Virus record (IMG/VR): IMGVR_UViG_3300046314_000711
Origin: a virus
Direction: 5' to 3' (one strand)
Length of the DNA stretch: 64,000 nucleotides
The notes beneath the pieces are model-generated. The model did no database searches and was not told the origin of the DNA. It saw only the letters and a program-made list of their open reading frames with translations. Below, piece after piece: positions 4,697 to 4,826 of this stretch. The translations under genes were made by a program, and so were the position numbers. Position 1 is the first letter of the stretch; every line of letters starts with the position of its first letter.

Positions 4697-4826
4697 GACC
4701 CTTGCATAGTTTATTCGGCAAAACGTAAGAAATGTTGGTTCGATTCCAACCTATGAACTCTGTTCGTAGTCGTCTAATGGCTAAGACGCAGGAGAGGGTG
4801 GTTCGAAGCCACCTGCAAATAGGGTC
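4697..4826 (+). ncRNA. Double-elbow tRNA mimic (two D arms, two T arms, no anticodon)
   Basis: D arm 4707-4724; T arm GTTGG-TTCGATT-CCAAC; closed acceptor-like hairpin CTATGAAC-TCT-GTTCGTAG; D arm CGTCT...AGACG; T arm GGTGG-TTCGAAG-CCACC; outer GACCCTTGCA/TGCAAATAGGGTC stem. Confidence 0.7.

What the first reader, a model, noticed from the sequence alone, without database searches (positions are those of the whole stretch)
4697..4826. Two-headed tRNA mimic: two D/T elbows and no anticodon
Seen in order: outer stem, D arm (GTTT-ATTCGGC-AAAC), linker, T arm (GTTGG-TTCGATT-CCAAC), loop-closed acceptor-like hairpin (CTATGAAC-TCT-GTTCGTAG), D arm (CGTCT-AATGGCTA-AGACG), linker, T arm (GGTGG-TTCGAAG-CCACC), outer stem. 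The inner T-acceptor-D order is circularly permuted, as I recall for the YrlA Y RNA module, and it replaces the anticodon arm of an outer tRNA. Inference: a bivalent elbow decoy for elbow- or T-loop-recognising proteins.
Basis: partly seen in the sequence, partly recalled or inferred. Interest (0 to 1): 0.75.

Follow-up and report, generated by a model that had tools for sequence, protein, structure and literature searches.

The report
Two-headed anticodon-less tRNA mimic in phages
A freshwater jumbo phage and at least 14 other uncultured phages carry a conserved ~130-nt RNA gene built like two tRNAs fused back to back, with two elbows and no anticodon; it is a tRNA-mimic architecture I found in neither Rfam nor the papers, and its function is still unknown.

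Summary
Window 4697-4826 (+) folds as: outer stem, D arm, purine-rich linker, T arm, closed acceptor-like hairpin, D arm, linker, T arm, outer stem.

I found 14 distinct homologues in uncultured phage contigs. There is one strong copy in each of the four whole records searched, and each fetched locus holds one.
- A covariance model built without the window finds exactly 4697-4829 (88 bits, E about 1e-25). The next hit in the window scores 15 bits.
- 95% of cells pair, and 19 of 33 pairs show double changes (0/500 shuffles reach this).
- Only the swapped acceptor pairings are conserved, so this is not a decayed tandem tRNA pair.
- The tertiary 15-48 pair covaries in trans, which supports two complete, domain-swapped tRNA cores.

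It is not a decoding tRNA: there is no anticodon arm and no conserved CCA. It is not a YrlA member either: no gathering-score hit, no Ro-binding helix, no adjacent Ro gene. In one relative tested, the inner T-hairpin-D module does give a local sub-threshold YrlA match.

Three related phages carry a single-headed version in the same chassis at the equivalent place.

Function is inferred only. My best guess is a stable tRNA mimic that engages proteins recognising the tRNA elbow or acceptor.

The scan's earlier notes cover this element only on this same genome, not on other DNA.

The parts
4609..4637 (+). sigma-70-like promoter (TTCACA, 17-nt spacer, TATAAT with upstream TG) about 59 nt before the element
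   Evidence: 11 of 12 matches. Most relatives have no such promoter directly upstream; there the element follows another cassette.
4652..4668 (+). leader hairpin A (5 bp, loop CUAAUUA)
   Evidence: read from the sequence; not compared across relatives
4676..4696 (+). leader hairpin B (6 bp, loop AGUAAUUAA) ending exactly at position -1 of the element
   Evidence: A hairpin abuts G1 in all 18 family members. Its stem covaries (GAG/CUC, GGG/CCC, GGA/UCC). A hairpin with an AGUAAUUAA or near-identical loop (one letter differs in L034, L035 and L038) is present here or just upstream in every member.
4697..4706 (+). outer stem, 5' strand (GACCCU + UGCA)
4707..4724 (+). U8-A9 and D arm 1 (4-bp stem, loop AUUCGGCA with G18G19)
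4725..4733 (+). G26 and purine-rich linker 1 (UAAGAAAU). Its last base pairs as position 48 with base 15 of D2.
4734..4750 (+). T arm 1 (GUUGG, loop UUCGAUU, CCAAC)
4751..4769 (+). inner acceptor-like hairpin (8 bp, loop UCU)
   Evidence: All 15 family members have a different sequence here. In 11 of 15 it forms a continuous 6-8 bp stem; in the other four the stem is interrupted by a mismatch or bulge. C4760 in the loop is U in a variant strain.
4770..4787 (+). U8-C9 and D arm 2 (4-bp stem, loop AAUGGCUA)
4788..4796 (+). G26 and purine-rich linker 2 (CAGGAGAG)
   Evidence: The family consensus for both linkers is about GCAGNGAGAY.
4797..4813 (+). T arm 2 (GGUGG, loop UUCGAAG, CCACC)
   Evidence: In 12 of 14 relatives this arm carries an extra U-U or U-C layer. 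Their outer stem is 1 bp shorter, so the T2 + outer stack is 15 layers in every member.
4814..4826 (+). outer stem, 3' strand (UGCA, AAU bulge at 4818-4820, AGGGUC). It is followed by GCA, not CCA.
   Evidence: The AAU bulge is present in all 15 two-headed and all 3 single-headed members.

Best explanation
Window 4697-4826 is the gene for a conserved phage non-coding RNA: a pseudo-dimeric, domain-swapped double tRNA mimic.

Architecture. Two units of the form U8-A9, D arm, G26, ~9-nt purine linker, T arm are joined head to tail.
- The outer (9-10 bp, AAU-bulged) stem, D1 and T2 form one tRNA-like core.
- T1, a closed 7-8-bp acceptor-like hairpin and D2 form a second, circularly permuted core.
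- The 3' end of each linker serves as the variable loop of the other core.
- There is no anticodon arm and no conserved CCA, so it cannot decode.

It is transcribed on the strand of the phage's tRNA/ncRNA array.

Inferred mechanism (not shown). It is recognised as tRNA by enzymes that read the acceptor/T-arm helix and the elbow, such as RNase P, 3' processing enzymes and T-loop/D-loop modifying enzymes. It accumulates as a stable RNA and acts by occupying or bridging tRNA-binding protein(s) through its two elbows. The near-invariant bulged outer stem would be a sequence-specific handle for an unknown protein.
For: Shown here:
1. All arms and the canonical tRNA core letters are present twice.
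2. There are 14 distinct homologues. One was found through a neighbouring protein of 45% identity. Thirteen came from pattern scans of IMG/VR.
3. Model R1 scores true members at 103-144 bits and the next class at 35 bits or less. There is one strong copy in each of four whole records searched with R2.
4. The independent model R2 finds the window copy at 88.3 bits.
5. Covariation: 95.1% of cells paired, 19 of 33 pairs with changes on both sides, score 0.481 against 0.164 in shuffles (0/500), and 0.07-0.12 when partners are slid.
6. Swapped acceptor pairings are 7/7 in most members. The cis pairings that two separate tRNAs would need score 1-6 of 7.
7. Base 15 of D2 is Levitt-compatible with the base before T1 in 13 of 15 (A-U five times, G-C eight times). 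Base 15 of D1 is compatible with the base before T2 in 14 of 15. The cis combinations fit in only 4-5 of 15.
8. The stretch 4729-4827 lies in a 1468-nt contig of an RNA library at word depth 305, joined to downstream array RNA.
9. There is no +-strand terminator between 4300 and 5400, and a strong promoter-like site lies at 4609-4637.
10. Relatives' loci are dense tRNA arrays, three of them with permuted tmRNA.

From the literature: the comparable T-acceptor-D module of bacterial YrlA is modified by TruB and DusA. In M. smegmatis it is cut by RNase P and receives CCA (PMC4201824). So tRNA enzymes do accept such modules.
Against: - No binding partner, processing site or phenotype is shown. The decoy/adaptor step is inference.
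- The RNA-library contig that covers the element starts at 4729, inside linker 1, with sequencing adapter directly before it. The abundant species in that sample may therefore begin inside the element (cleavage in the linker or a reverse-transcription stop) rather than at G4697.
- RNA-library contigs cannot prove transcription or ends.
- The invariance of the outer stem is partly by construction. Thirteen homologues were found with patterns that fixed parts of it.
- The extended, bulged acceptor (15 stacked layers with T2, against 12 in tRNA) may not be a good RNase P substrate.
- Three related phages carry a single-headed version in the same chassis, so two heads are not indispensable.
Confidence: 0.5

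Rival explanations
1. It is a processing and stability chassis, not a trans-acting RNA. The tRNA-like outer core serves only as a punctuation mark for RNase P and 3' processing enzymes. These cut the long array transcript and protect the neighbouring cassettes, much as tRNAs punctuate rRNA operons and mitochondrial transcripts.
For: - The element sits inside a polycistronic array of hairpin-closed RNA cassettes and tRNAs, in the window and in relatives.
- A leader hairpin ends exactly at position -1 in all members.
- The same outer chassis carries a different interior in L025, L061 and L001.
- The RNA-library contig joins the element to about 1.3 kb of downstream RNA.
Against: - The arrays already contain many ordinary tRNAs that could do this job.
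- Simple punctuation does not explain selection for a complete second core. The inner hairpin, D2 and T1 all covary, and the trans 15-48 pair is kept.
- It also does not explain the conserved purine linkers or the invariant AAU bulge.
Confidence: 0.2
2. It is a Y-RNA-like adaptor. The permuted tRNA-like module works as in bacterial YrlA, tethering the phage's DUF2828/DUF7788 'RNA-binding protein' (or the host's Ro60) to another factor for decay or repair of structured RNA.
For: - The inner module has the YrlA order T, acceptor-like hairpin, D. In L037 it gives a local YrlA match (26 bits, E 0.001).
- The window encodes a DUF2828+DUF7788 protein (phrog_850, 'RNA-binding protein') at 18404-19837.
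- YrlA-type RNAs were reported next to Ro60 genes in more than 250 bacteria and phages (PMC4201824).
Against: - The YrlA gathering score (69 bits) is not reached, and the window copy gets no YrlA hit at E up to 10.
- Model positions 1-27 and 82-114, the Ro-binding helix, are unmatched.
- No GNCGAA(N)G motif is visible in the element.
- The DUF2828 gene is 13.6 kb away.
- None of nine element-bearing phage records has a DUF2828 homologue, including one complete 163-kb genome. The KVP40 positive control matched. Eight of the nine records are fragments.
- The DUF2828 protein has no sequence match to any solved structure, Ro60 included.
Confidence: 0.08
3. It is a decayed tandem pair of tRNA genes (pseudogenes) that happens to fold.
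For: - The two halves are clearly duplicates: same unit, similar linkers.
- Linker 2 resembles the 5' strand of an anticodon stem seen in ordinary tRNAs.
- Tandem tRNAs give weak hits to the family model (17-25 bits).
Against: - The architecture is conserved across 15 contigs whose stems have diverged with compensatory changes.
- The acceptor pairings that separate tRNAs would need are at chance level, while the swapped ones are perfect.
- There is trans 15-48 covariation.
- Segment lengths are constant, and the T2 + outer stack is a constant 15 layers.
Confidence: 0.02
4. It is a functional decoding tRNA with an intron. This is ARAGORN's forced reading: tRNA-Thr(AGU) with a 35-nt intron.
For: With introns allowed and the threshold lowered, ARAGORN reports 4700-4821 as tRNA-Thr(agt) with intron i(33,35).
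Against: - The proposed anticodon stem is mismatched, and the 'intron' would remove T1 and half of the inner hairpin.
- Default ARAGORN and Rfam at gathering score call nothing.
- The homologues conserve T1, the hairpin and D2, not any anticodon loop.
Confidence: 0.01

Closest known systems
YrlA (bacterial Y RNA with a tRNA-like domain; Rfam RF02553; PMC4201824)
   Same: - Circularly permuted tRNA-like module: T arm, loop-closed acceptor-like stem, D arm, with canonical elbow nucleotides.
- Local sub-threshold match of the YrlA model to T1-hairpin-D2 in L037.
- Also found in phages.
   Different: - No Ro-binding helix or GNCGAA(N)G motif.
- Not next to a Ro60/TROVE gene.
- The module is embedded in a second, outer tRNA-like core, so there are two elbows.
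- Gathering score not reached, and no hit on the window copy.
Phage T4 stable RNAs species 1 and 2 (rnaC, rnaD) in the T4 tRNA cluster
   Same: Small stable RNAs of unknown function encoded inside a phage tRNA gene cluster, as annotated in NC_000866. rnaC ends in a canonical T arm closed by a terminal stem.
   Different: rnaC has one T arm, long hairpins and no D arms. rnaD has none of these. The family model gives only tandem-tRNA-level scores (about 14-15 bits) on the T4 region.
Single-headed relatives in the same chassis (L025 5544-5637, L061 10962-11056, L001 8509-8602)
   Same: - Same leader hairpins.
- Same 5 + 4-bp outer stem with AAU bulge. L001 shows compensatory changes: GACUC/GAGUC and GUAG/CUAC.
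- A D arm and a T arm, at the same place in the array.
   Different: - 94-97 nt long.
- Between D and T there are two plain hairpins (5 bp with a 6-nt loop NUWAUN; 4-5 bp with a loop of about AAAUARAC) instead of T1-hairpin-D2.
- One elbow only.
- Score 30-35 bits with R1.
Circularly permuted tRNA-type genes: two-piece (permuted) tmRNA, permuted tRNA genes of some algae and archaea (own knowledge)
   Same: The gene order T arm, acceptor 3' strand, short joining piece, acceptor 5' strand, D region is that of the inner module. Relatives of this phage also encode permuted tmRNA elsewhere in the array.
   Different: In those genes the joining piece is excised to give free ends and a CCA. Here the joining loop is only 2-6 nt in most members and is not conserved. 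The RNA has no mRNA-like or anticodon part.
Recombinant 'tRNA scaffold' for RNA expression and other tRNA mimics such as mascRNA (own knowledge)
   Same: A tRNA body whose anticodon arm is replaced by a payload, or a tRNA-like fold used for processing and stability.
   Different: Those are engineered, or have a single elbow. Here the payload is itself a complete second tRNA core, and the whole is conserved in nature.

Membership tests
canonical tRNA (Rfam RF00005) | anticodon arm with a 7-nt loop | tested here: not met
   8-10-nt unpaired purine linkers stand in its place in all 15 members. Rfam aligns with the 17-nt arm deleted.
canonical tRNA (Rfam RF00005) | 7-bp acceptor stem joining the 5' and 3' ends, discriminator and CCA (encoded or added) | tested here: not met
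   The outer stem is 9-10 bp with an AAU bulge. A purine follows it in 17 of the 18 members (L001 has U), but CCA is encoded in only 4 of the 15 two-headed members and 1 of the 3 single-headed ones. Addition of CCA in vivo could not be tested.
canonical tRNA (Rfam RF00005) | D and T arms with U8, A14, G18G19, A21, G53-C61, UUCRA | tested here: met
   Met twice per molecule. The T2 arm has U-U or U-C at the 53-61 layer in 12 of 15.
canonical tRNA (Rfam RF00005) | score at or above the Rfam gathering score (29 bits) | tested here: not met
   The window copy scores 22.2 bits, partial. In relatives, part of the element alone reaches 30-35 bits: the first half in L023 and L034, the second half in L022.
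YrlA (Rfam RF02553) | tRNA-like module in the order T arm, closed acceptor-like stem, D arm | tested here: met
   local YrlA alignment in L037
YrlA (Rfam RF02553) | score at or above the gathering score (69 bits) | tested here: not met
   26 bits in L037; no hit at E up to 10 on the window copy
YrlA (Rfam RF02553) | Ro-binding helix formed by the ends, with GNCGAA(N)G on the 5' strand (PMC4201824) | tested here: not met
   Model positions 1-27 and 82-114 are unmatched. No such motif is in 4697-4826 by inspection.
YrlA (Rfam RF02553) | gene next to a Ro60/TROVE gene | tested here: not met
   Among the 40 window ORFs of 150 aa or more that were scanned, none hits Pfam's TROVE family. The only candidate RNA-binding protein (DUF2828/DUF7788) is 13.6 kb away. 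It is absent from nine element-bearing records, with a working positive control.
tandem (dimeric) tRNA genes | each unit's own 5' and 3' acceptor strands are complementary | tested here: not met
   Cis pairings score 1-6 of 7 (mostly 1-4). Swapped pairings score 7 of 7 in most members.
tmRNA / permuted tmRNA | tRNA-like domain plus tag reading frame; match to the Rfam or ARAGORN models | tested here: not met
   No tmRNA call in the window. In relatives the tmRNA hits lie elsewhere in the loci.
T4 rnaC/rnaD | sequence or structure likeness to the T4 species 1 or 2 RNAs | tested here: not met
   Folds differ. R1 gives only 14-15-bit tandem-tRNA-type hits on the T4 region.

The most novel reading that the evidence does not exclude
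The RNA is a purpose-built bivalent tRNA decoy or adaptor. Its two rigidly spaced elbow/minihelix heads would clamp a dimeric or two-site tRNA-binding machine, for example a host tRNA-targeting defence nuclease or toxin, RNase Z or RNase P, or a phage tRNA-repair enzyme. Its bulged outer stem would recruit a phage protein. That would make it an RNA-based counter-defence or hijacking device, and a natural example of three-dimensional domain swapping between two tRNA cores.
Probability: 0.25. Interest if true: 0.9.

Novelty: new variant of a known kind. Interest (0 to 1): 0.74.

Why it matters
tRNA mimicry is a recurring way for viruses and cells to plug into the translation and RNA-processing machinery. 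The known mimics present one tRNA shape. This family presents two complete elbows in one 130-nt chain, held together by swapped acceptor strands and two short purine linkers.

- It is conserved with textbook covariation, including a tertiary pair, across phages with estimated genomes of about 100 to 350 kb.
- That makes it an attractive target for structure determination.
- It is a clean test case for how tRNA cores can be recombined.
- It is a lead to an unknown protein partner in tRNA-rich phages, which also carry tRNA repair genes (an Rnl1-like ligase in this window).
- It shows that tRNA finders and Rfam miss a whole class of tRNA-derived genes in phage tRNA arrays.

Tried and rejected
- **Close relatives by exact 22-mer:** nothing in IMG/VR.
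- **Neighbour protein in IMG/VR:** nothing.
- **The one metagenome pattern scan** (T1 arm ... GCAGGAGA): returned only ordinary or tandem tRNAs by chance. That scan is now spent.
- **Genome-contig scan with the outer-stem pattern:** 21 hits. None has two T-loop motifs, and the two that carry one (L040, L057) are plainly unrelated sequence. I treat all 21 as chance. So no member was seen in 185,579 prokaryote genomes at that exact pattern.
- **INPHARED cultured phages:** megablast of 24 kb found no match. blastn with the L037 element found no match. No cultured host is known.
- **ARAGORN intron reading:** rejected.
- **Read laying coverage gaps:** in RNA run X20 no listed contig covers 4688-4728, and X19 covers none of the element. 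Absence of cover is not evidence and I do not use it. DNA run X12 did not cover the element.
- **DUF2828 against solved structures:** no hit. I did not fold it.
- **Partnership with DUF2828:** no co-occurrence found, but eight of the nine records are fragments.
- **Promoters upstream of relatives:** mostly none, so 'first gene of an operon' was dropped.
- **Literature searches** for phage two-elbow or anticodon-less tRNA mimics: no description of this RNA.

Full report
**1. What is in the sequence**

Window 4697-4826 (+) reads, in order:
- outer 5' strand (GACCCU + UGCA)
- U8-A9
- D arm 1 (4709-4724, loop AUUCGGCA)
- G26 and an 8-nt purine linker (4725-4733)
- T arm 1 (4734-4750, loop UUCGAUU)
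- an 8-bp hairpin closed by UCU (4751-4769)
- U-C
- D arm 2 (4772-4787, loop AAUGGCUA)
- G26 and a second 8-nt purine linker (4788-4796)
- T arm 2 (4797-4813, loop UUCGAAG)
- outer 3' strand (UGCA, a 3-nt AAU bulge, AGGGUC)

The minimum-free-energy fold reproduces this architecture (-39.9 kcal/mol, z = -2.6). ARAGORN with default settings and Rfam at gathering score report nothing here. Rfam's tRNA model aligns only D1 + T1 with the anticodon arm deleted (22.2 bits). ARAGORN's low-threshold 'tRNA-Thr with a 35-nt intron' is a forced reading with a mismatched anticodon stem.

**2. Where it lies**

The window is from an uncultured freshwater phage.
- No whole genome is held for it, and no nucleotide match exists in cultured phages.
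- Proteins are 30-43% identical to jumbo-phage proteins.
- The stretch occurs in many freshwater metagenome runs.
- The window encodes a gp32-like protein, a RecA/UvsX-like protein with a HINT domain, a clamp loader, split DNA polymerase III alpha pieces, an NAD-dependent ligase, an Rnl1-type RNA ligase and TnpB.

The element lies in a stretch of about 4.5 kb (about 2200-6700) with no ORF longer than about 115 aa and no recognised protein, under table 11, table 4 or TAG=Q. That stretch is full of promoter-driven, hairpin-closed RNA cassettes and tRNA-like genes.

A strong promoter-like site lies at 4609-4637. No +-strand terminator follows before 5400. Two leader hairpins precede the element. 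The second (loop AGUAAUUAA) ends exactly at position -1.

**3. Homologues**

A protein search with the upstream ORF (628-2013) led to contig L003, whose copy of that protein is 45% identical. L003 carries the same RNA 2.6 kb downstream of that gene.

Patterns taken from the conserved leader hairpin and the outer stem then found 13 further distinct copies in IMG/VR contigs.

A covariance model (R1) separates the 15 two-headed copies (103-144 bits) from everything else (35 bits or less). Each fetched locus holds one strong copy, and so does each of the four whole records searched with R2. Phage KVP40 has none.

A second model built without the window (R2) hits exactly 4697-4829 at 88.3 bits, E 7.8e-26. 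The runner-up in the 64-kb window scores 14.8 bits.

The genome contigs and metagenome pattern scans gave only chance matches. CheckV estimates imply genomes of about 100-350 kb for the carriers. Their loci are dense tRNA arrays, and three of the twelve relatives' loci scanned carry a permuted tmRNA; two of those three also match the betaproteobacterial tmRNA model. This hints at betaproteobacterial hosts (inference).

**4. Comparative support for the fold**

On the model-based alignment of 15 sequences:
- 95.1% of cells form standard pairs, against 79% in shuffles and 33-55% when partners are slid.
- 19 of 33 pairs show changes on both sides.
- The covariation score is 0.481, against 0.164 in shuffles (0 of 500 reach it) and 0.07-0.12 for slid controls.

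My segment-by-segment parse shows the inner hairpin has a different sequence in every member. In 11 of 15 it forms a continuous 6-8 bp stem. In the other four (L024, L031, L036, L038) the stem is interrupted by a mismatch or bulge.

The canonical tertiary letters are kept in both halves: U8 14-15 of 15, A14 13-15, GG in all 30 D loops, A21 13-15, G26 13-15, UUCRA in 29 of 30 T loops, G53-C61 in all T1 arms.

The AAU bulge is invariant. Most members have an extra U-U or U-C layer in T2 and a 5-bp terminal helix. The window has a 5-bp T2 and a 6-bp terminal helix. The T2 + outer stack is therefore 15 layers in every member.

A caveat: 13 homologues were found with patterns that fixed parts of the outer stem. 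However, L003 and L001 were reached through a neighbouring protein. L022-L026 were found by a pattern that fixed only the leader hairpin and GACCC, and so left the bulge free. All of them show the same bulge, and L001 shows compensatory changes in both outer helices.

**5. Not two tRNAs, but two swapped cores**

If these were two tRNA genes in tandem, the 7 nt before each U8 should pair with the 7 nt after the same unit's T arm. They do not: 1-6 of 7, mostly at the chance level of about 2.6. The swapped combinations are 7 of 7 in most members.

The tertiary Levitt pair gives an independent test:
- Base 15 of D2 matches the base just 5' of T1 in 13 of 15 (A-U five times, G-C eight times, with switches within otherwise similar sequences).
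- Base 15 of D1 matches the base 5' of T2 in 14 of 15.
- The cis combinations fit in only 4-5 of 15.

So the outer stem, D1 and T2, together with the 3' end of linker 2, make one tRNA-like core. T1, the closed hairpin and D2, together with the 3' end of linker 1, make a second, circularly permuted core.

The two linkers share the consensus GCAGNGAGAY and are 71-78% purine. I infer, without a test, that their 5' parts run antiparallel between the two D stems, perhaps as a short G-A helix. This would give a rod with an elbow at each end.

**6. Relatives with one head**

L025 (from a complete 163-kb genome), L061 and L001 (the phage whose neighbour protein is 49% identical to the window's) carry, at the same place, a 94-97-nt RNA. 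It has the same leader hairpins and the same AAU-bulged outer stem. Between D and T it has two plain hairpins and no proper 7-nt anticodon loop.

L030 also has, about 900 nt upstream of its two-headed copy, a separate cassette with a lone T-hairpin-D module.

So the outer tRNA-like body behaves as a chassis and the permuted module as an exchangeable interior.

**7. Expression**

In RNA-library run X20, a 1468-nt contig (word depth 305) covers 4729-4827, skips 4828-4937 and continues through 4938-6151. It has sequencing adapter directly before 4729.

DNA run X16 has the same variant, lacking 4828-4937. It shares the variant's differences at 4782, 4788 and 4795-4797; X20 alone also differs at 4760. 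These are the hairpin loop, the D2 loop, position 26, linker 2 and the first T2 pair.

This shows three things:
- The element is present in RNA-library assemblies, joined to downstream array RNA.
- The 110-nt hairpin after the element is an indel.
- An abundant species may start in linker 1.

Contigs cannot prove transcription, strand or ends.

**8. Comparison with known families**

- *YrlA.* The inner module has YrlA's T-acceptor-D order. In L037 it gives a local YrlA match (26 bits against a gathering score of 69, model positions 28-81). The window copy gives none. There is no Ro-binding helix or motif. The only candidate RNA-binding protein (DUF2828/DUF7788, phrog_850) is 13.6 kb away. It is absent from nine element-bearing records, while the KVP40 control matched.
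- *T4 rnaC/rnaD.* These share the setting (stable RNAs of unknown function in a phage tRNA cluster) but not the fold.
- *Literature.* Searches found YrlA, several other bacterial tRNA mimics and viral tRNA-like structures, but nothing with two elbows or this topology.

I therefore class this as a new variant of a known kind (tRNA mimics), not as a member of any curated family.

**9. Mechanism**

Shown: a conserved, structured, non-decoding double tRNA mimic encoded in phage tRNA/ncRNA arrays.

Inferred:
- It is handled by tRNA enzymes. YrlA modules are modified by TruB and DusA, and in M. smegmatis are cut by RNase P and given CCA (PMC4201824).
- It acts by presenting two elbow/minihelix heads to tRNA-binding protein(s).
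- The near-invariant bulged outer stem serves as a specific handle.

Rivals:
- A mere processing and stability chassis for the array (0.2).
- A Y-RNA-like adaptor for a Ro-like protein (0.08).
- Decayed tandem tRNAs or an intron-containing tRNA (0.03 or less together; contradicted).

**10. Verdict**

Observation confirmed. Structural interpretation supported and sharpened (domain-swapped cores, bulged outer stem, conserved leader hairpin, single-headed relatives). Functional interpretation untested. The scan's earlier notes mention this element only on this same genome.

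Noticed in passing
window 4828-4937: A 110-nt near-perfect hairpin directly after the element is absent from a variant strain, both in a DNA run and in an RNA-library contig (joint 4827 to 4938). It is also absent from all relatives. It repeats the word GAGAGUAAUU of leader hairpin B, so it may be an inserted or mobile hairpin that can compete for pairing.
   Followed up: partly
window 4729 and 3952: RNA-library contigs of run X20 end at these two places with Illumina adapter directly attached. This suggests discrete RNA 5' ends or reverse-transcription stops. 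4729 lies inside linker 1 of the element.
   Followed up: no
window 19866-19973, 6366-6468, 12186-12306, 12471-12584, 2390-2482: tRNA-like genes with 20-40 extra nucleotides in or in place of the anticodon arm. Three encode CCA. 19866-19973 looks like tRNA-Lys(CUU) with a 32-nt insert after position 37, and it sits 28 nt after the DUF2828 gene.
   Followed up: partly
window 4412-4498: An 87-nt class-II-like tRNA-Tyr(GUA)-like gene with encoded CCA and an odd T loop (GUCGGAA). Neither ARAGORN nor Rfam calls it.
   Followed up: partly
window 18404-19837: A DUF2828 + DUF7788 protein (phrog_850, 'RNA-binding protein'). It is 42% identical to a KVP40 protein, matches more than 700 cultured phage records, and has no sequence match to any solved structure.
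   Followed up: partly
window 5040-5064: Weak Rfam match (17.2 bits) to the GTPase-associated-centre region of large-subunit rRNA, inside the array RNA. The depth peak there in all four runs probably includes true rRNA of other organisms.
   Followed up: no
window 25463-25536 and 43161-43236: A tRNA with anticodon CUA (reads UAG). At lowered threshold, also a tRNA with anticodon UUA (reads UAA). Yet long ORFs are open under table 11.
   Followed up: no
window 31894-33933, 49915-51357, 55998-61853: Interrupted genes: an Rnl1-type RNA ligase next to a NUMOD3 homing-endonuclease gene on the other strand; a RecA/UvsX-like protein with a HINT (intein-like) domain; DNA polymerase III alpha in separate pieces.
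   Followed up: no
window 3324-3560 and 3399-3480 / 4212-4293: Near-identical duplicated RNA cassettes (92 nt twice, 82 nt twice) with AU-rich closing stems. Four rrn-style units (promoter, small GATC hairpin, boxA-like GUUCUUUAAAAA) lie at 2286-3250.
   Followed up: no
L030 6124-6246: A separate cassette with a lone T arm, 7-bp hairpin, D arm module (YrlA-like order). Its hairpin is almost the same as the inner hairpin of the two-headed RNA of another phage (L026).
   Followed up: partly
L023 4041-4439, L034 2496-2823, L024 5686-5923: Phage-encoded permuted (two-piece) tmRNA genes in the same arrays as the element; the L023 and L034 copies also match the betaproteobacterial tmRNA model.
   Followed up: no
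leader of all family members (e.g. window 4676-4696; L029 1416-1460): A hairpin with the 9-nt loop AGUAAUUAA (one letter differs in L034, L035 and L038) and freely covarying stems precedes every copy. In many phages a second hairpin with loop AGUCAUGAC lies between it and the element. The role is unknown; it could be a protein site or a processing signal.
   Followed up: partly
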